A stretch of DNA of 38,038 nucleotides, taken from positions 1 through 38,038 of the IMG/VR virus record IMGVR_UViG_3300047678_000357. One strand, written 5' to 3'. Position 1 is the first letter of the stretch. Each line of letters starts with the position of its first letter. Origin of the DNA: a virus. This document shows positions 1 to 38,038 of this stretch, in pieces. The translations under genes were made by a program, and so were the position numbers. Below the pieces are notes generated by a model that ran no database searches, was not told where the DNA came from, and was given only the letters and a program-made list of their open reading frames with translations.

Positions 1-32
1 ATGCAGGTCGTCATCGCAGAACTTGTCAACAT
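1..32. repeat. Terminal direct repeat, left copy (identical to 38007..38038)
   Basis: The first 32 nt (atgcaggtcgtcatcgcagaacttgtcaacat) recur exactly as the last 32 nt. An ORF starting at 37911 reads through the repeat, so this is most simply the assembly overlap of a circular or circularly permuted genome (unique length 38006 bp). Confidence 0.9.
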
Positions 33-6016: not shown

Positions 6017-6193
6017 ATGAAAACACAAAAAACAAAAAGCAGAATATCTAAGGCAGAGCGCGAAGCCTACGCAATCGTAGGTAAGAAGGGCGGTCTAGCT
6101 ATTGCAAAGAAACTCGGCAAGAAAGGCATGAGTGCACTCGGCAAGGCTGGAGCAGCAAAGCGATGGCCTAAGAAAAAGACAAAAGTATCCTGA
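6017..6193 (+). CDS. Small, highly basic Lys/Gly/Ala-rich protein (58 aa)
   Basis: Start set at ATG 6017 (MKTQKTKSRISKAEREAYAIVGKKGGLAIAKKLGKKGMSALGKAGAAKRWPKKKTKVS), in frame with track ORF 5957..6193. KGG-type repeats. Confidence 0.5.
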   Translation: MKTQKTKSRISKAEREAYAIVGKKGGLAIAKKLGKKGMSALGKAGAAKRWPKKKTKVS

Positions 6194-6238
6194 TATCCAC
6201 AGGGTGCTCTTGTGGTATAGGCGAGCTGACGCTATAAT
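6193..6238 (+). promoter_or_regulatory. Promoter of the chaperonin operon with upstream ATATCCACA box
   Basis: Box at 6193..6201 with an inverted partial copy TGTGGTATA at 6211..6219. GCGAGCTGACGC is fused to TATAAT at 6233..6238 (distance 40). Leader TTATTACTAAGTTAATC follows. Confidence 0.65.
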
Positions 6239-6269
6239 ATAATTATTACTAAGTTAATCATTCATTCAC

Positions 6270-6527
6270 ATGGAAGATACAAAAATAGCAGAGGAAGCAG
6301 CAAAAGAATTACAAGGTCGTGTAGAAGAGTTCAATAAGGAACTCATCCCATTACTCGGAAAGTACGAACTTGGTCTTGGAGCAAGTGCATTCATGAACCC
6401 AAACGGTACAATCGGAGCTCGACCAATCATGTTCGATGCACGAAAAACAGAAGGTGAGAAGACAGAAGCTCCAGTAGAGGAGACTAACACAAAGGAGACA
6501 GAAGCTCCTGCATTATCAGAAGCGTAA
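6270..6527 (+). CDS. Hypothetical protein (85 aa)
   Basis: First ORF after the promoter at 6233. No motif recognised. Confidence 0.55.
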   Translation: MEDTKIAEEAAKELQGRVEEFNKELIPLLGKYELGLGASAFMNPNGTIGARPIMFDARKTEGEKTEAPVEETNTKETEAPALSEA

Positions 6528-6531
6528 AACT

Positions 6532-6780
6532 ATGATCCCTGTACTACTCGGATACATCGCTGGATTAGTGACTGCGGTAATCATCGCGTTGCTACTCGCC
6601 TACTTCAAATCCCCTCTTCAGAGGGTTTTGAAGGTAGCTGAAGAAAAGATAGCGTCTGCCGGTCCAAGACCAAAAGGCTACATATTCGAGGGTGATGATG
6701 AAGTCATCGAAGCGAGAAAGGAAATCATCGCCAAGAACTCCGAGCAGGGAAAGTCAACGCCATTAAGTGAACTACCATAA
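6532..6780 (+). CDS. Small membrane-anchored protein (82 aa)
   Basis: N-terminal hydrophobic helix MIPVLLGYIAGLVTAVIIALLLAYF followed by a charged tail. Confidence 0.55.
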   Translation: MIPVLLGYIAGLVTAVIIALLLAYFKSPLQRVLKVAEEKIASAGPRPKGYIFEGDDEVIEARKEIIAKNSEQGKSTPLSELP

Positions 6781-6782
6781 AT

Positions 6783-7064
6783 ATGAAAATACAACCTCGA
6801 GGAAAAAACATCCTCATCGAAAAGGATAAGCCATCAAGTAAAGAAAGTGAGTATGGCATCGTTACTCCTGACTCAGTAGAGGAGGAGCAAAAAGCGTTCG
6901 GTACAGTCGTAGCAGTAGGACCAGACATCAAAGACATCAAAAAAGGTGACCGAGTAGTGTATGGAGCATACGCAGGTGAGCAAATACAGATCGAAGAAAA
7001 GGGCAAAAAACACGAGTATCGACTGGTCGAAGATCAAGATGTAATCGCGTTCATACAAAAATGA
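6783..7064 (+). CDS. groES: Co-chaperonin GroES/Hsp10 homologue
   Basis: MKIQPRGKNILIEK...SEYGIVTPDS...FGTVVAVGPD...KKGDRVVYGAYAGEQI...VEDQDVIAFI aligns block-for-block with bacterial GroES (IxPLxDRVLV, GIVLP, GxVxAVG, GDxVxFxxYxG, DILAxI). Confidence 0.85.
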   Translation: MKIQPRGKNILIEKDKPSSKESEYGIVTPDSVEEEQKAFGTVVAVGPDIKDIKKGDRVVYGAYAGEQIQIEEKGKKHEYRLVEDQDVIAFIQK

Positions 7065-7309
7065 AACGATACGGATGTAGATACGGACAACCACACGACC
7101 TCGTCCCAACCGCAGAAAGCCCAACTGTTAAATGGGAAGTCTGTCGAATCTGTAACAAGAAGTTCCGTTGGAATAAGGGCTCTAAAAAAAGGATAGACAA
7201 TGTCCGATATCTCGAAGCTCACGCCCGGAACTATGCACAACAAGGCGGTGCAACAAAAAGGCTCTTTATGAAGCTCTACGAGCCAGAGCGATGTATCATA
7301 AAACTATGA
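7061..7309 (+). CDS. Small Cys-containing basic protein between groES and groEL (82 aa)
   Basis: ATGA overlaps at both ends (7061..7064 and 7306..7309). Contains the CRIC pair (WEVCRICNKKF) plus two further Cys residues. Function unknown. Confidence 0.55.
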   Translation: MKRYGCRYGQPHDLVPTAESPTVKWEVCRICNKKFRWNKGSKKRIDNVRYLEAHARNYAQQGGATKRLFMKLYEPERCIIKL

Positions 7310-8853
7310 ATGAAATAACAATCACAACAAAAGACCCATTCGATATAATCCAACGAGCAGTCGTGAAGGCTGTGGACTTGGTAAAACCGACATACGGTCC
7401 AGCAAGCAACAAGGTGATCATCTCAAAATTGACTCACCAATTAGTGGTAGATGACGGTGTGCAAATCATGCGCGACCTCGAGCTAAAAGACCCGAGTGAA
7501 CATGCAGTACTCAAAGTCATCCGAGAAGTAGCTATAAAGACCAACGATCGTGCAGGTGACGGTACAACTGGCTCAATGATTATGCTCGGAGCAATCGTGG
7601 GAGAAGTGGCAACATTTCACCGACGTGATGGACACAAAATTGAGAGAGAACTCAAAAAAGGTCTACTCGAGGCAACAGAACAACTCCGCGCACAGGCAAA
7701 GCCAGTGAAGACTCTTGAAGAACTCAAGAAGGTCGCACGCATCTCATTCGACAACGAGGAGGTGTCAACTCTTATCGCGGATACTTGGTTCAAAGTCGGA
7801 AAGGAAGGAGTCGTCACAGTAGACTCAGGCCCGACAATGAAAACAACCTCTGAACTCTCAGAAGGTATCAAACTCGCGAACGGATACATCAGCCCTCTCA
7901 TGGTCAACAACCCAGAGAGAATGGAGGCTGTACTCGAGAAGCCACTCATCCTCATCACTGACTACCGACTCACAGAAGGCTCAGACATCATTGAACTTCT
8001 CAATCTCATGGCAAAGGCTGGCAAAGGCAAACTCCTTGTTATCGCGGAGAATGTAGAACAAAGTGCACTCTCAACCCTCATCATCAACCAAGCTCACCTC
8101 ATCAATCCAATGACAGGTAAGCCCGGAGTGATGCAGTCCATCGCAGTGGTAGGTCCCGGATCAGACAACTCAACAACTCTCGAAGACATTGCCCTTCTTA
8201 CAGGAGCAACTGTATTCAGTCAGAGCAAAGGAAACCGACTCCAGAATGCGAAAATCGAAGACCTCGGACAAGCAGACCGTGTCATTGCACGCCGAGATGG
8301 TTCAGTCATCATCGGACCAAAGGGCAAGAAGGACGTGATCAAGAAAGCAATCGCTGAACTCACATCAGCACTTGAAGCGGCAGAGCGACAAAGTGACAAA
8401 GACAAAATACAAAAAAGACTCGCATTCTTCGCAAACAAGATAGCAGTCATTCGAGTAGGTGCTCCGACAGATCAGGAACAGCGCGCACTCCGATACAAGA
8501 TTGAAGACTCAATCAACGCGGTCAAGGCAGCATTCAAAGGCGGTGTCGTATGTGGAGGTGGACTCGCACTCTCACGAATCACAACATCAAGCCCTATACT
8601 CAACAACGCGCTCAAAGCTCCAGCAAAACAACTCGTTGATAACATGGGAGGTATAGAACTTGAGCGACCACTCAAGTCAGACGAAGCATGCAATGTCATT
8701 ACAGGAAAAATAGGCAAGTTCATGGACGTGGGAGTCATTGACCCTGTCGACGTTCTGATTGCCGGAGTAGAAAGTGCCGTATCAGTGGCATCTCTCCTCG
8801 TAACTACATCGGGAATGATTGTGGAAAAGCCACGACATCTTCCCAACCAATAA
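7306..8853 (+). CDS. groEL: Group I chaperonin GroEL/Cpn60 homologue (515 aa, no GGM tail)
   Basis: RAGDGTTGSMIMLGAIV (canonical AGDGTTTATVLA), GGVVCGGGLAL (canonical VPGGGVAL), GVIDPVDVLIAGVESAVSVASLLVTTSGMIVEKP (canonical GIIDPTKVTRSALQ...). Start set at ATG 7306, overlapping the upstream stop. Confidence 0.85.
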   Translation: MNEITITTKDPFDIIQRAVVKAVDLVKPTYGPASNKVIISKLTHQLVVDDGVQIMRDLELKDPSEHAVLKVIREVAIKTNDRAGDGTTGSMIMLGAIVGEVATFHRRDGHKIERELKKGLLEATEQLRAQAKPVKTLEELKKVARISFDNEEVSTLIADTWFKVGKEGVVTVDSGPTMKTTSELSEGIKLANGYISPLMVNNPERMEAVLEKPLILITDYRLTEGSDIIELLNLMAKAGKGKLLVIAENVEQSALSTLIINQAHLINPMTGKPGVMQSIAVVGPGSDNSTTLEDIALLTGATVFSQSKGNRLQNAKIEDLGQADRVIARRDGSVIIGPKGKKDVIKKAIAELTSALEAAERQSDKDKIQKRLAFFANKIAVIRVGAPTDQEQRALRYKIEDSINAVKAAFKGGVVCGGGLALSRITTSSPILNNALKAPAKQLVDNMGGIELERPLKSDEACNVITGKIGKFMDVGVIDPVDVLIAGVESAVSVASLLVTTSGMIVEKPRHLPNQ

Positions 8854-8854
8854 C

Positions 8855-9034
8855 ATGGGAGAAAAAGCAGGAATGAGTACAGCAACAGTCATTCAGATCG
8901 TCTTCATCATCCTCAAGCTAGTCGGAGTCATCCACTGGTCTTGGTGGTGGGTACTTTCACCAATGTGGATCAGCCTACTGTTGGCTCTGATAATCATCGG
9001 ACTGGTAGTCGTAGCACTCAAGGTTCAGGAGTAG
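8855..9034 (+). CDS. Small integral membrane protein (59 aa)
   Basis: Start set at ATG 8855, 2 nt after the groEL stop. VIQIVFIILKLVGVIHWSWWWVLSPMWISLLLALIIIGLVVV gives two hydrophobic helices. Confidence 0.55.
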   Translation: MGEKAGMSTATVIQIVFIILKLVGVIHWSWWWVLSPMWISLLLALIIIGLVVVALKVQE

Positions 9035-9036
9035 AG

Positions 9037-9083
9037 TTATCCACTCCCGACAGCTCGCTATCTTTCCGAGAGTGTTGTACAAT
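9037..9083 (+). promoter_or_regulatory. Promoter with TTATCCACT box; probable leaderless start
   Basis: Box at 9037..9045. GACAGCTCGCTAT at 9049..9061. TG-TACAAT with the hexamer at 9078..9083 (distance 41). Exactly 6 nt separate the -10 from ATG 9090. Confidence 0.55.
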
Positions 9084-10143: not shown

Positions 10144-10248
10144 ATGACGATTGGCGGAGTGGCTTATCGCAGAGTATGAAAACTTGGAACTCGTCCTTGC
10201 CTCATCCAAGAGAGGTGGGGACCGCAGGTTCAAATCCTGCATCGTCAT
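10144..10248 (+). ncRNA. tRNA-like element with a non-canonical anticodon domain
   Basis: 8-bp closing helix ATGACGAT 10144..10151 / ATCGTCAT 10241..10248. D-arm-like GCGG-AGTGGCTTA-TCGC at 10154..10170. Canonical T-arm GCAGG-TTCAAAT-CCTGC at 10224..10240. The 52 nt in between form GAGT-(13-nt loop)-ACTC plus a long hairpin GTCC..GCCTC-ATCCAAGA-GAGGT..GGAC. No encoded CCA. Confidence 0.4.
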
Positions 10249-12487: not shown

Positions 12488-12694
12488 ATGATATGCACAC
12501 ACACATTCATTAAGGTAGGAGAAATAAGTAAACCACGACCAAGCCCGGTGCCGACAATGATCGGTGTCCCGGGAGCAGAAGTCGTCTGCGTTCACTGTGG
12601 ACAAGTTCGTAAGGTATGGGCTGACGGTAAAGTCGAAATCGTCGTCAGAAGTAGTGGTCATATAGACGAAAATATTGATGTCAAAACTAGCTGA
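12488..12694 (+). CDS. Hypothetical small Cys-containing protein (68 aa)
   Basis: VVCVHCGQV gives a CxxC pair. Overlaps the terminase start by 17 nt. Confidence 0.4.
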   Translation: MICTHTFIKVGEISKPRPSPVPTMIGVPGAEVVCVHCGQVRKVWADGKVEIVVRSSGHIDENIDVKTS

Positions 12695-14357
12695 GAAGTC
12701 CATCCACGCATGGCTGATAGACAACGAGATCAAGAATGAAAAAGGTGACCTCATCACTTTCGATGAGCACCTGTTCTTGTATGACATCTATCGGGACCAG
12801 AGCCCCAAGCTCGTAGTAATGAAGGCCGCGCAAGTCGGTCTTTCAACGTTGGAGGTACTCAAGAATATCTATGATGCCAAGCACCACAAAATGGACATCA
12901 TCTATACCCTGCCGACCAACGATGACGTGCGAACATTCGTGTCAGGAAAGGTGAACCGTATCATCTCAAACAACCCAGTCCTGCAAGGCTATACGGCCGA
13001 CCAAGACTCAATCGAGCAGAAGATGATAGGAGGGCAATCAATGCTCTACTTCCGAGGTACATGGGACAAACGTAAAGCGACAATGGTCACTGCCGACCGC
13101 CTCGTGCACGATGAGAAGGACTCAAGCAAGCAAGACGTCATTGCTGACTATCAAGCGCGTATGCAACACTCGAAGTTCGGACAGACACACGTGTTCAGTC
13201 ACCCGAGTGTGGCAAAGAAAGGCGTACACCAAGAATGGCTACAGTCAGATCAACGAGAGTTCTTCATCACCTGCCCACACTGCAAGAAGATGCAGTACCT
13301 CGAATGGAACCTCGAAGACGACAGACGAATGAGTGTTGATATCGAGCGCAAAGAGTTCATTTGCAAAGCATGCAAGGGAATACTCTCTGCAACTGACCGA
13401 TCAATCGGTGAGTGGATACCAAAGAAGTTCGTAGTCCAACCAGAGTGGCGCGGATACCACGTATCCCTACTCATGGCTCCATACCAAACAGCTTCACAAA
13501 TAGTCAAGAAATATCAGGAAGTGCTGGACGGAGAGCAGACAATGGACTTCTTCTATAACAAAATCCTCGGGCTACCATACGCAGGAGGTGGCAACGTCGT
13601 GACTGAAGATATGATACTCGGTGCAGTCACAGGCGAGATGAATAATCACAAAGGACGAATGGTCATCGGAGTGGACACAGGTATCGCACTGCGATATGTC
13701 ATCGGCAACAAGGAGGGACTCATGGGCTTCGGAGAAATGAAAGACTACAGCCCGGACGCTACCAATAAGCTCCTCCTCAACCAGACACTCGAATACTTCC
13801 TCGTGAAGTTCCCCAACTCAATCATGGTTATTGACCAAGGTGGAGATATCATCGGATCACGAAAGCTCAGGCAGAAATACCCGGGCAGAGTGTTCCTCTG
13901 TCACTACGCCGCCGACCGCAAGACAATGCAACTCATCCGCTGGGGTGAGAAGGATGAATCAGGCAATGTGCTGGTGGACCGAAACCGCATGATGCAACTC
14001 GTCATAGATGAGGTCAAAGATAGGCGCTGGAAGCTCTTTAATGGCACGAAAGGCGAGTGGCACGACTACTGGCTCCACTGGTCGCACATCTATCGCGTGT
14101 GGGTCGAGGATATGCTCGGAATACCACGATACAAGTGGCTTCGAGATGGGCGTGATGACTGGGTGCATGCAACAATCTACTGGCGAGTCGGAGTCGACCG
14201 ATTCGGGACTGGTGGAGCTGTGTTCGGCGCAGAGAGCGAGGCAGAACCAAACAGCTACATGATGAATGCCAATGGAACGGTGACATTTAACCCCGAGGAA
14301 CTCTTCAAGCTCACTGAAGGGCTCGGACAAACAGACGATGATGACGAATGGAGATAA
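12678..14357 (+). CDS. terL: Terminase large subunit (GpA-like)
   Basis: Walker-A-like VMKAAQVGLST. Walker-B-like RLVHDEKD. Zinc-ribbon-like CPHCKKMQYLEW...FICKACKG insert characteristic of GpA-type terminases. Start set at ATG 12678 (the track starts at TTG 12675). Confidence 0.75.
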   Translation: MSKLAEKSIHAWLIDNEIKNEKGDLITFDEHLFLYDIYRDQSPKLVVMKAAQVGLSTLEVLKNIYDAKHHKMDIIYTLPTNDDVRTFVSGKVNRIISNNPVLQGYTADQDSIEQKMIGGQSMLYFRGTWDKRKATMVTADRLVHDEKDSSKQDVIADYQARMQHSKFGQTHVFSHPSVAKKGVHQEWLQSDQREFFITCPHCKKMQYLEWNLEDDRRMSVDIERKEFICKACKGILSATDRSIGEWIPKKFVVQPEWRGYHVSLLMAPYQTASQIVKKYQEVLDGEQTMDFFYNKILGLPYAGGGNVVTEDMILGAVTGEMNNHKGRMVIGVDTGIALRYVIGNKEGLMGFGEMKDYSPDATNKLLLNQTLEYFLVKFPNSIMVIDQGGDIIGSRKLRQKYPGRVFLCHYAADRKTMQLIRWGEKDESGNVLVDRNRMMQLVIDEVKDRRWKLFNGTKGEWHDYWLHWSHIYRVWVEDMLGIPRYKWLRDGRDDWVHATIYWRVGVDRFGTGGAVFGAESEAEPNSYMMNANGTVTFNPEELFKLTEGLGQTDDDDEWR

Positions 14358-18244: not shown

Positions 18245-19261
18245 ATGACAGAATTATACGGACAACGAGTCCAGACAACAGTTCAGACAAAGTACCTTCC
18301 TTTCGTGGTTGATACTATCTTGAACTCAAACGTTCTCTTCCAGAGAATGGTTCGTGGGTCAAAGAAATGGGGTGGTCGAACACTCCGCGTACCAGTTAAA
18401 GTGTCAAAGAACACTACTGGTACTTCGTTCGCAGGTTTCGATACATTTTCAACCGCAGCAACAAACAACCGACAGTTCATGGAGTTCACTCCATCGTTCT
18501 ATCAGATCACTTGTGCGCTACCGGGTGACGAATTGTCAGTAGCCGACAGTGAGGACAAAGTACTTGACCTCATGAAACTTACTATTCAATCAGATACTGA
18601 AGACATGGCCGATGACCTCGGAACAATCTTCTACGCTGACGGAACTGGTAACGCTAACAAAGACCCATTGGGACTTTCAGCACTTGTTGACGATGGAACA
18701 TCAGTATCAACTATTGGTGGTCTTTCTCGATCAATTTACACTACTCTTAAGTCAACAGTTACCGCACAGGCAACATTGACTCTTGCAGCAGTGGACACAT
18801 TGTGGATCAACGTTACTTCAGGTGCGCAGAAGCCAACAGCTATCTACACAACTGAGGCAATCTACAATTACTACGGACAACTACTTCGACCACAGGAACG
18901 CATCACAAAGGATGTGGGCTTGATGAAAGGCATGACAGGTGGAACAGGCTTCACAGCTTTGAACTACAATGGCAAGCCAATCTTGATGGACGAGAAGTGT
19001 ACTGCACAGACATTCCAAATGATCAACGAAGACTATATGGACTTCTACGCACTTCCATACAAGTTCGCAAAGCCAGTGGCTTACAAGTCACAAATTGAGG
19101 GTAACGATTACGATGCCCCAATCGGTCTTGGTTTCTCTTGGTCTGACTGGATTATCCCTGCTAACTCTGCGTCAGTTGTTGGACACATCTACTTCGGTGG
19201 ACAGTTCATCACAACTAACCCAAAGCGACACGGAAAATTGACTACAGTCGCAGGTATCTAA
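18245..19261 (+). CDS. Major capsid protein
   Basis: 338 aa, immediately after the scaffold gene. A beta-rich sequence with no low-complexity regions. Size and position fit an HK97-fold/P22-type coat protein. Confidence 0.6.
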   Translation: MTELYGQRVQTTVQTKYLPFVVDTILNSNVLFQRMVRGSKKWGGRTLRVPVKVSKNTTGTSFAGFDTFSTAATNNRQFMEFTPSFYQITCALPGDELSVADSEDKVLDLMKLTIQSDTEDMADDLGTIFYADGTGNANKDPLGLSALVDDGTSVSTIGGLSRSIYTTLKSTVTAQATLTLAAVDTLWINVTSGAQKPTAIYTTEAIYNYYGQLLRPQERITKDVGLMKGMTGGTGFTALNYNGKPILMDEKCTAQTFQMINEDYMDFYALPYKFAKPVAYKSQIEGNDYDAPIGLGFSWSDWIIPANSASVVGHIYFGGQFITTNPKRHGKLTTVAGI

Positions 19262-37911: not shown

Positions 37912-38038
37912 TGAACCCACGAGAAAAATTGATACTCGAATCAGCACTCAAAGCTCTCGAGAATCTACAAATCATACGAAGTGACGATTACGAGATATCA
38001 CACTCAATGCAGGTCGTCATCGCAGAACTTGTCAACAT
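37911..38038 (+). CDS. 5' part of the junction-spanning small ORF (continues at 33..78)
   Basis: TAATG overlap with the upstream stop. MNPREKLILESALKALENLQIIRSDDYEISHS then runs into the terminal repeat in frame. Confidence 0.5.
   Translation, partial: MNPREKLILESALKALENLQIIRSDDYEISHSMQVVIAELVN
38007..38038. repeat. Terminal direct repeat, right copy
   Basis: Identical to 1..32. Confidence 0.9.

What the first reader, a model, noticed from the sequence alone, without database searches (positions are those of the whole stretch)
6783..8853. Phage-encoded GroES - Zn-ribbon ORF - GroEL operon with ATGA translational coupling
The genome encodes both a clear Hsp10/GroES homologue (6783..7064) and a full-length group I chaperonin (7306..8853). 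The chaperonin has GDGTT and GGG nucleotide-site motifs but no C-terminal GGM repeats.

The two are separated by an 82-aa basic Cys-containing ORF. Its start overlaps the groES stop and its stop overlaps the groEL start, both as ATGA.

Phage co-chaperonins are common and a few large phages encode GroEL-like proteins. A complete GroES+GroEL pair with an obligatorily co-translated third component in a 38-kb genome is unusual. The small protein could be a substrate adaptor, a lid modifier or an inhibitor of the host chaperonin.

The operon has its own box-containing promoter (6193..6238) and two upstream small genes, one of them membrane-anchored.
Basis: partly seen in the sequence, partly recalled or inferred. 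Interest (0 to 1): 0.7.

Follow-up and report, generated by a model that had tools for sequence, protein, structure and literature searches.

The report
Phage GroES/GroEL operon with embedded zinc protein
A 38-kb uncultured phage carries a real GroES/GroEL protein-folding pair with a conserved small zinc-type gene wedged between them, but related phages keep that small gene without any chaperonin, so it looks like an older phage gene and not a third chaperonin subunit.

Summary
6783..7064 is a Cpn10/GroES homologue, 7306..8853 is a full-length group I chaperonin, and 7061..7309 is a real, strongly conserved 82-aa basic Cys/His protein. It overlaps both neighbours as ATGA.

All three genes lie in a six-gene operon (6270..9034) behind a promoter-like site at 6193..6238.

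The "obligatory co-translated third component" reading is only partly supported. In the window's own clade the order GroES-ORF82-GroEL is universal (56 of 56 loci chosen by GroEL alone). The overlaps are not: both junctions overlap in 5 of those loci, and extra ORFs are often inserted.

ORF82 belongs to a broad, unannotated family (206 cluster representatives). I found it only in this uncultured 38-41 kb phage lineage, usually just upstream of the terminase genes.

Sister phages show GroES-ORF82 with no GroEL, GroEL after TerL, GroEL-GroES-ORF82, or ORF82 with no chaperonin nearby. The GroELs fall into four clades that are as far from each other as from E. coli GroEL.

Most likely ORF82 is an ancestral backbone gene around which chaperonin genes were inserted. 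Viral GroES>GroEL operons are already described. ORF82's function is unknown, and its confidently predicted fold has no match.

The parts
6193..6238 (+). Promoter-like site of the operon: box ATATCCACA (6193-6201), then TATAAT (6233-6238)
   Evidence: The same box-plus-(GCGACAGCTCGC)TATAAT layout recurs at 350, 5234, 5797 and 36719, with the box alone at 9037. The box is enriched: 21 hits with at most 1 mismatch against 9.1 +/- 2.7 expected. The generic sigma-70 scan did not call it. Sequence pattern only.
6270..6527 (+). ORF85, an acidic 85-aa protein of unknown function; first gene of the operon
   Evidence: ORF found; pI 4.5. No Pfam, PHROG or NCBIfam hit. Homologues sit in the same position in relatives, including phages without chaperonins.
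6532..6780 (+). TM82, an 82-aa protein with one N-terminal membrane helix
   Evidence: Hydrophobic N-terminus MIPVLLGYIAGLVTAVIIALLLAYF. Conserved upstream of groES. In chaperonin-less relatives (L010, L011, L013, L015) it lies directly upstream of the ORF82 homologue.
6783..7064 (+). groES-like co-chaperonin, 93 aa, lacking the roof hairpin
   Evidence: Pfam Cpn10 7.9e-16; PHROG 3188; PDB Cpn10/Cpn20 hits. Mobile loop reads YGIVTP. The roof hairpin is deleted relative to my recalled E. coli GroES sequence, as in all GroES of this lineage. Below every NCBIfam GroES cut-off.
7061..7309 (+). ORF82, a basic 82-aa Cys/His protein of an unannotated family
   Evidence: 41 close homologues. Invariant C28, C31, F35, R36, W37, K39, R44, N47, Y50, L51, H54, R56, Q60, G63, T65, I80. 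Profile search finds 206 cluster representatives. AF2 pLDDT 91. No Foldseek, Pfam, PHROG, NCBIfam or PDB-sequence match.
7306..8853 (+). groEL-like group I chaperonin, 515 aa, no GGM tail
   Evidence: Pfam Cpn60_TCP1; PHROG 5725 1e-99; NF009487 371 bits against 352. Full-length alignment to solved GroELs with GDGTT and the ...EDxxxA... catalytic Asp context conserved, plus a 9-residue apical insertion. Only about 33-35% identical to bacterial or other phage GroELs.
8855..9034 (+). 59-aa two-helix membrane ORF; last gene before the next promoter box at 9037
   Evidence: ORF found (ATG at 8855, 1 nt after the groEL stop). A 75-nt stretch (8897-8971) is 82.7% identical to a membrane-protein gene of Arthrobacter phage Atuin. 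The next box, TTATCCACT, is at 9037.

Best explanation
The window is a complete 38-kb genome of an uncultured tailed phage. One promoter-like site (6193-6238) precedes a six-gene operon: ORF85, TM82, GroES, ORF82, GroEL and a small membrane ORF.

GroES (roofless, mobile loop intact) and GroEL (ATP site and hydrophobic apical residues intact, no GGM tail) most likely form a phage-specified group I chaperonin. Its probable job is folding phage late proteins such as the capsid protein (inferred by analogy with T4 gp31 and GroEL).

ORF82 is not a chaperonin-specific subunit. It is an ancestral backbone gene of this phage lineage. It normally sits with TM82 and ORF85 just upstream of the terminase genes, and chaperonin genes were inserted around it. 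groES went in upstream of ORF82. groEL was acquired at least four separate times, or diverged very anciently, at different positions.

In the window's clade groEL landed directly downstream of ORF82. That produces the sandwich and, in some members, ATGA overlaps of the kind seen at other junctions of this compact genome.

ORF82 itself is a small basic protein with a probable single zinc site, (C6 or H10)/(H or C)12/C28/C31, followed by a helical motif GR[IV]DN..YL..H.R[DN][FY].Q. Its most likely role is nucleic-acid binding linked to late gene expression or DNA packaging. That last step is inference from charge, zinc site and gene position. It is not shown.
For: Chaperonin assignments.

Operon and promoter. 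No + strand terminator-like site falls between 6270 and 9034.

Complete genome: a 32-nt terminal direct repeat.

ORF82 family breadth: 206 representatives. The core motif is conserved across 85 diverse members.

Context in 58 IMG/VR loci chosen only by the ORF82 DNA motif:
- All but one of the loci where TerL or the major capsid protein could be scored show TerL 41-79% or capsid protein 43-50% identical to the window's.
- ES-82-EL in the window's clade.
- ES-82-TerS/TerL with no GroEL (8 loci).
- ES-82-TerL-EL (L023, L024, L066).
- EL-ES-82 (L018, L051, and L225-L227).
- ES-EL-x-82 (L012).
- ORF82 with no GroES or GroEL in the available sequence (L007/L009, L010, L011, L013, L015, L016, L017, L036, L050). 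In four of these TM82 is directly upstream of ORF82 and TerS/TerL is downstream.

GroEL clades are 25-34% identical to each other, about the same as to my recalled E. coli GroEL sequence, except L012's at 46%.

Junction overlaps vary within the clade. ATGA overlaps occur at 5 junctions genome-wide. ORF82 has pI 10.0.
Against: Within the window's clade ORF82 is always between groES and groEL (56 of 56).

Across the wider lineage groES lies directly upstream of ORF82 in most loci, even where groEL is absent or elsewhere. That could reflect a functional GroES-ORF82 link and not only inherited gene order.

The chaperonin-less loci are partial contigs covering 1.4-4 kb upstream and 4-11 kb downstream. 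A chaperonin gene elsewhere in those genomes is not excluded.

No evidence of DNA or RNA binding was obtained. The fold has no match, with best Foldseek E values of 0.46 (PDB) and 0.058 (BFVD). The TTATCCACA box is not conserved in relatives that keep ORF82, so no target site can be proposed.
Confidence: 0.6

Rival explanations
1. ORF82 is a dedicated cofactor of the phage co-chaperonin. It acts with the roofless GroES and either phage or host GroEL, for example as a substrate adaptor for the capsid protein or as a lid or cycle modifier. The gene order is kept so that the proteins are made together.
For: ORF82 lies between groES and groEL in 56 of 56 clade members chosen by GroEL alone. groES is directly upstream of ORF82, from a 31-nt overlap to a 25-nt gap, in at least five different arrangements, including phages with no GroEL nearby. 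A GroEL>GroES operon followed by a conserved unknown ORF was already noted in viromes (PMC5649160). I could not check whether that ORF is ORF82. Every GroES in this lineage lacks the roof hairpin.
Against: About nine distinct loci have an ORF82 homologue with neither GroES nor GroEL in the available flanks, with TM82 abutting ORF82. Phage GroES-GroEL pairs outside the lineage have no ORF82 (L132, L134-L137; phi38:1). None of 50,697 GenBank phage records encodes it. Extra ORFs are often inserted on either side. High pI and a zinc site fit nucleic-acid binding better than any known co-chaperone. All these phages are related, so gene order may be inherited and not selected.
Confidence: 0.2
2. ORF82 is a degenerate His-Me (HNH-like) zinc-finger nuclease, or a DNA-binding accessory factor of the gpA-type terminase, comparable to the HNH proteins next to terminases in cos phages.
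For: Outside the window's clade it lies 200-2000 nt upstream of TerS/TerL. In L013 it lies between a TerS-like ORF and TerL. The model has a beta-beta-alpha core after a CxxC. E26, N47 and H54 are nearly invariant across the family and D/N57 is conserved.
Against: There is no His at the end of the first beta strand, where the HNH general base sits. No Pfam HNH hit in any of 85 members. No Foldseek match to HNH or His-Me structures. In the window it is 5.4 kb from TerL, with groEL and a ParB-methyltransferase gene in between.
Confidence: 0.1
3. ORF82 is a late-gene transcription regulator: a small zinc-finger activator or antiterminator in the manner of P2 Ogr or lambda Q, placed at the early-late boundary.
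For: It is the last conserved gene before the packaging and structural module. It is small and basic with a probable zinc site. The genome has a repeated promoter box that some factor must read.
Against: No similarity to Ogr/Delta or Q families. The box is not conserved in relatives, whereas ORF82 is. In the window's clade groEL overlaps the ORF82 stop, so no late promoter can lie between them.
Confidence: 0.1

Closest known systems
Virioplankton GroES>GroEL and GroEL>GroES operons (Marine et al. 2017, ISME J, PMC5649160)
   Same: Uncultured phage contigs that carry both a Cpn10 and a group I Cpn60 far from bacterial GroELs. Some of their viral GroES genes lack the roof hairpin and have altered mobile loops. 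Both gene orders occur, and a conserved unknown ORF follows the GroEL>GroES operons.
   Different: That paper describes no conserved Cys/His gene between groES and groEL. I could not test whether its contigs belong to this lineage.
Cellulophaga phage phi38:1 (NC_021796): gp007 Cpn10 - gp006 - gp005 GroEL
   Same: A cultured phage with GroES, a roughly 90-aa ORF, then GroEL, tightly packed (noted in PMC5649160).
   Different: gp006 has no Cys and is unrelated to ORF82 (hhalign probability 0.1%). The phage is 72.5 kb. Its GroEL is only 29% identical to the window's.
Bacterial groESL operon (E. coli GroES/GroEL)
   Same: Same gene order and same two families. GDGTT, the catalytic Asp context, the hydrophobic apical residues and a G-I-V-x mobile loop are all conserved.
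   Different: An extra gene lies between the two. GroES lacks the roof hairpin. GroEL has no GGM tail, carries a 9-residue apical insertion, is about 35% identical, and scores below the TIGR02348 equivalog cut-off.
T4 gp31 / RB49 CocO (phage co-chaperonins) and phage EL gp146 / OBP gp246 / AR9 gp228 (phage GroEL-like chaperonins)
   Same: Phage-encoded replacements for one half of the chaperonin system. gp31 and CocO also lack the roof hairpin (as summarised in PMC5649160). The GroEL-like proteins of the large phages are described in PMC7185714 and PMC9598537, listed; I did not read these two papers in full.
   Different: Each of those phages encodes only one partner, and the EL/OBP/AR9 phages have very large genomes. 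Here both partners sit in a 38-kb genome.

Membership tests
Cpn10 / GroES co-chaperonin | Full-length match to the Cpn10 profile above the curated threshold | tested here: met
   Pfam PF00166, 58.3 bits against 21.1, profile positions 1-92 of 93; PHROG 3188.
Cpn10 / GroES co-chaperonin | Mobile loop with Gly followed by a hydrophobic tripeptide that binds GroEL | tested here: met
   The window's Y-G-I-V-T-P aligns with E. coli G-G-I-V-L-T; the third position is polar (using my recalled E. coli sequence; alignments).
Cpn10 / GroES co-chaperonin | Roof beta-hairpin closing the dome | tested here: not met
   The roof hairpin is deleted relative to E. coli GroES, in the window and in every lineage GroES. 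The same deletion is known in T4 gp31, CocO and some virome GroES clusters (PMC5649160).
Cpn10 / GroES co-chaperonin | NCBIfam GroES equivalog or subfamily cut-off | tested here: not met
   Best hit NF001537, 56.6 bits against a cut-off of 109.
Cpn10 / GroES co-chaperonin | Heptamer that caps GroEL | not testable with these tools
   Needs multimer prediction or biochemistry.
Group I chaperonin Cpn60 / GroEL | Full-length Cpn60 profile match above the curated threshold | tested here: met
   Pfam PF00118, 116 bits against 34.3. NF009487, 371.1 against 352. PDB GroELs, E 1e-82, over residues 11-509.
Group I chaperonin Cpn60 / GroEL | NCBIfam TIGR02348 GroEL equivalog cut-off | tested here: not met
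   345.4 bits against 582.1; a divergent clade.
Group I chaperonin Cpn60 / GroEL | Nucleotide-site motifs (GDGTT, catalytic Asp, GGG) | tested here: met
   AGDGTTG, YKIEDSINA aligned to ARVEDALHA, and GGVVCGGG.
Group I chaperonin Cpn60 / GroEL | Hydrophobic apical residues for substrate and GroES binding | tested here: met
   GYISPLM, IIELL and ALSTLII align with GYLSPYF, LLPIL and ALATLVV of the reference GroEL. Mapping to E. coli residue numbers rests on my own knowledge.
Group I chaperonin Cpn60 / GroEL | C-terminal GGM repeat tail | tested here: not met
   The protein ends ...IVEKPRHLPNQ.
Group I chaperonin Cpn60 / GroEL | Ring assembly (single or double heptamer) and ATP-driven folding | not testable with these tools
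   Needs biochemistry or cryo-EM.
   Only one CxxC (C28, C31). The other pair is C6 or H10 with H or C at position 12.
   No Pfam hit. Only weak, partial signals: bL31, E 0.5-0.7, and 30-46-residue matches to small phage zinc proteins, best E 0.058. The AF2 model has three strands around the Cys/His site.
   Needs metal analysis.
phi38:1-type GroES - short ORF - GroEL | Intervening ORF homologous to phi38:1 gp006 | tested here: not met
   hhalign probability 0.1%.
HNH / His-Me finger nuclease | Catalytic His at the end of the first strand; HNH profile or fold match | tested here: not met
   No such His in the alignment. No Pfam HNH hit in 85 members. No Foldseek match.

The most novel reading that the evidence does not exclude
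ORF82 defines a new class of small zinc-binding partner of roofless phage co-chaperonins. It would be made next to GroES and act on the GroES-GroEL complex, with either host or phage GroEL, for instance by delivering the capsid protein or by altering the open dome. The chaperonin-less homologues, which are longer and carry a C-terminal helical extension, would then be a diverged or ancestral form with another partner.
Probability: 0.13. Interest if true: 0.75.

Novelty: new member of a known kind. Interest (0 to 1): 0.4.

Why it matters
Phage-encoded GroES/GroEL pairs are known from viromes but have not been studied biochemically. This window is a complete, compact example from a large uncultured lineage. 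That lineage has at least 537 IMG/VR contigs and no cultured relative; the best TerL identity in GenBank phages is below 29%.

The lineage appears to have gained GroEL several times at different positions next to a fixed GroES-ORF82 core. That makes it a natural experiment on why small phages need their own chaperonin.

ORF82 is a confidently folded protein family with no annotation. It marks the lineage and is a reasonable target for structural or functional work. If it did act on the chaperonin it would be a new kind of cofactor, but present evidence favours an unrelated backbone role.

Tried and rejected
- Foldseek of two AF2 models of ORF82 (pLDDT 87 and 91) against PDB and BFVD gave nothing below E 0.05.
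- Pfam, PHROGs and NCBIfam scans of ORF82, and a Pfam scan of 85 family members, gave no family.
- A PDB sequence search with the family profile gave only bL31 at E 0.5.
- tblastn of ORF82 against 50,697 GenBank phage records found nothing credible.
- The phi38:1 intervening ORF is not homologous to ORF82.
- The search for related loci with the broad ORF82 alignments failed for lack of a conserved stretch. I used back-translated DNA motifs instead.
- My first script for intergenic distances missed many GroES genes because of a start-refinement bug. It was corrected. A few GroES genes (L014, L066, L012) are still missed by that script but were seen.
- Selecting relatives by TerL returned only the 80 closest, all from the window's own clade, so it gave no unbiased presence/absence table for the wider lineage.
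- Rfam found no RNA family anywhere in the window.
- I considered the TTATCCACA box as a possible ORF82 target. It is not conserved in relatives, so I dropped the idea.
Full report
**Observation.** The ORF map and the sequence confirm three abutting + strand genes: 6783..7064 (93 aa), 7061..7309 (82 aa) and 7306..8853 (515 aa). Both junctions are ATGA overlaps.

The first gene matches Pfam Cpn10 over its whole length (E 7.9e-16, above the gathering score). It also matches PHROG 3188, co-chaperonin GroES.

The third gene matches Cpn60_TCP1 and PHROG 5725, groEL, at 1e-99. It passes the NCBIfam GroEL subfamily model NF009487 (371 bits against 352) but not the TIGR02348 equivalog (345 against 582). 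It aligns from residue 11 to 509 with solved GroELs at E 1e-82.

GDGTT, the EDxxxA catalytic Asp context, GGG and the hydrophobic apical positions are kept. There is a 9-residue apical insertion and no GGM tail. Identity to any bacterial or GenBank-phage GroEL is only about 31-35%.

The GroES has a G-I-V-T mobile loop and lacks the roof hairpin.

**The window as a whole.** All genes are on the + strand. Annotated genes include Erf, a replication initiator, a methyltransferase, RusA, NinB, a ParB-methyltransferase, a gpA-type TerL (12675..14357), the major capsid protein (18245..19261) and tail genes.

The first 32 bases repeat at the end. The window is therefore a complete, circularly assembled phage genome of about 38.0 kb.

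No GenBank phage has a TerL more than 29% identical. At least 537 IMG/VR contigs encode a TerL relative.

**The operon.** An ATATCCACA box (6193-6201) followed by TATAAT (6233-6238) belongs to a repeated promoter-like layout. That layout is TTATCCACA, then 22 or about 30 nt, then TATAAT, with GCGACAGCTCGC directly before the TATAAT at the best-conserved sites. It is seen at 350, 5234, 5797, 6193 and 36719, with the box alone at 9037. The box is enriched genome-wide: 21 hits against 9.1 +/- 2.7 expected.

The generic sigma-70 scan did not flag the site, so this rests on pattern alone.

Between this site and the next box at 9037 lie six tightly packed genes. They are ORF85, membrane-anchored TM82, GroES, ORF82, GroEL and a 59-aa membrane ORF. 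No + strand terminator-like site was found between them.

**ORF82 is a real gene of an unannotated family.**
- Forty-one homologues at 54-98% identity share invariant C28, C31, F35, R36, W37, K39, R44, N47, Y50, L51, H54, R56, Q60, G63, T65 and I80.
- A profile search of 1.84 billion representatives finds 206 clusters at E of 0.001 or better, 64-160 aa long.
- The core is (C6 or H10), (H or C)12, C28xxC31, then GR[IV]DN..YL..H.R[DN][FY].Q.
- That is one CxxC plus a Cys/His pair, a plausible single zinc site but not a classic two-knuckle ribbon.
- The protein is basic, pI 10.0.
- AF2 gives a confident model (pLDDT 87, then 91 with the deeper alignment). It has three strands around the Cys/His site followed by helices.
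- Foldseek finds nothing significant in PDB or BFVD.
- Pfam, PHROGs, NCBIfam and PDB sequence searches are also empty.
- No GenBank phage record encodes it.

**Is it a third chaperonin component? Two samplings bear on this.**

(a) I selected IMG/VR loci by clade-specific GroEL alone (alignment A4). Fifty-six loci have at least 650 nt upstream of groEL, and all 56 have an ORF82 homologue between groES and groEL. The script found 55, and L090 was confirmed by eye.

The coupling, however, is not conserved.
- ORF82 to groEL: a 4-nt overlap in 22 loci, a gap of 25 nt or less in 17, and more than 100 nt in 15 (an extra ORF in L002 and L006).
- groES to ORF82: a 4-nt overlap in 12, another overlap or a gap of 25 nt or less in 24, and more than 100 nt in 17.
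- Both junctions overlap by 4 nt in only 5 loci.
- ATGA overlaps occur at three other junctions in this genome.

(b) I selected loci only by a back-translated ORF82 motif. This gave 58 IMG/VR loci, of which 56 contain a family member by HMM. All but one of the loci where TerL or the capsid protein could be scored belong to the same phage lineage, with TerL 41-79% or capsid protein 43-50% identical to the window's. The arrangements differ:
- GroES-ORF82-GroEL, the window's clade.
- GroES-ORF82-TerS/TerL with no GroEL nearby (8 loci).
- GroES-ORF82-TerL-GroEL (L023, L024, L066).
- GroEL-GroES-ORF82 (L018, L051; also L225-L227).
- GroES-GroEL-x-ORF82 (L012).
- About nine distinct loci with neither chaperonin gene in the available sequence.

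In four of the chaperonin-less loci (L010, L011, L013, L015) the TM82 homologue abuts ORF82 and TerS/TerL follows.

The GroELs of the four positional classes are 25-34% identical to each other. That is no closer than to E. coli GroEL, and L012's is 46% identical to E. coli (the E. coli sequence is from my memory).

**Reading of the two samplings.** The simplest reading is that ORF85-TM82-ORF82 is an ancestral cassette at the early-late boundary. groES was inserted upstream of ORF82. groEL was gained repeatedly, or diverged very anciently, at different spots.

There are two caveats. The chaperonin-less loci are partial contigs. And the persistent GroES-ORF82 adjacency could still be functional.

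**Comparison with known systems.** Marine et al. 2017 (PMC5649160) reported that 133 of 337 virome GroEL contigs also carry GroES. Both gene orders occur. Some of the viral GroES lack the roof hairpin, and a conserved unknown ORF follows the GroEL>GroES operons.

They also noted GroES - short ORF - GroEL in Cellulophaga phage phi38:1 and related contigs. I checked phi38:1. The arrangement is there, but its 90-aa gp006 has no Cys and is unrelated to ORF82.

The chaperonin pair is therefore a new member of a known kind. ORF82 is an undescribed family whose link to chaperonins is positional.

**Function of ORF82.**
- Shown: it is conserved, has a probable zinc site, is basic, has a fold with no match, is restricted to this lineage in the collections I searched, and usually sits just upstream of the packaging genes.
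- Inferred: it binds nucleic acid and acts in late expression or packaging.
- Rivals: a GroES-linked cofactor, a degenerate His-Me nuclease working with terminase, or a late-gene regulator. None could be tested further with the tools available.

**Host hint.** Seventeen GTDB genome contigs encode a TerL relative. Seven of them sit in Patescibacteria (CPR) MAGs, including 36.8-kb and 40.4-kb contigs. Binning of phage contigs is unreliable, so this is only a lead.

Noticed in passing
window 1-32 and 38007-38038: An exact 32-nt terminal direct repeat. The window is therefore a complete, circularly assembled phage genome of about 38,006 bp.
   Followed up: partly
window 350, 5234, 5797, 6193, 9037, 14840, 17365, 34800, 36719/36729: A box identical or near-identical to the DnaA-box consensus TTATCCACA precedes most operons. 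It is enriched: 21 hits against 9.1 +/- 2.7 expected. At five sites it is followed 22 or about 30 nt later by TATAAT or TATACT, preceded at the best-conserved sites by GCGACAGCTCGC. It may be a phage promoter or regulator site, or a host DnaA target. It is not conserved in related loci.
   Followed up: partly
window 10145-10247: A tRNA-like element in a 400-nt intergenic region. It has a 7-bp acceptor stem, a perfect T arm (GCAGG-TTCAAAT-CCTGC), an 11-bp long variable arm and an aberrant anticodon arm. MFE is -38 kcal/mol. ARAGORN and Rfam do not call it. It could be a degenerate or unusual class II tRNA, or an att-site remnant.
   Followed up: partly
window 8897-8971: A 75-nt stretch inside the small membrane ORF after groEL is 82.7% identical at DNA level to a membrane-protein gene of Arthrobacter phage Atuin. 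This was the only nucleotide hit of the 6200-9000 region to GenBank phages.
   Followed up: no
L012, L018/L051, L023/L024/L066 versus the window: Related phages carry four GroEL clades, 25-34% identical to each other, at four different positions relative to GroES-ORF82. L012's is 46% identical to E. coli GroEL. This suggests repeated GroEL acquisition by a lineage that already had GroES.
   Followed up: partly
L217, L219, L221, L224, L226, L227, L231 (GTDB genome contigs): Seven of the 17 GTDB contigs that encode a TerL relative are binned in Patescibacteria/CPR MAGs (Parcubacteria, Jorgensenbacteria, Nealsonbacteria, Saccharibacteria). Two of them are phage-genome-sized at 36.8 and 40.4 kb. 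A possible host clue, or a binning artefact.
   Followed up: no
L007, L011, L013, L015 (ORF82 homologues): ORF82 homologues in several chaperonin-less phages are longer (121-139 aa), most with a K/E-rich C-terminal helical extension. Those next to GroES are 64-90 aa, except L012's at 107 aa. In L016 an ORF that looks like an M15 peptidase (by eye only) follows the ORF82 homologue.
   Followed up: no
window, many gene starts (e.g. 22395, 23920, 24851, 25985): Start codons are usually preceded by A-rich leaders (TAAAAnnATG) with no obvious Shine-Dalgarno sequence. This may say something about the host's translation initiation.
   Followed up: no
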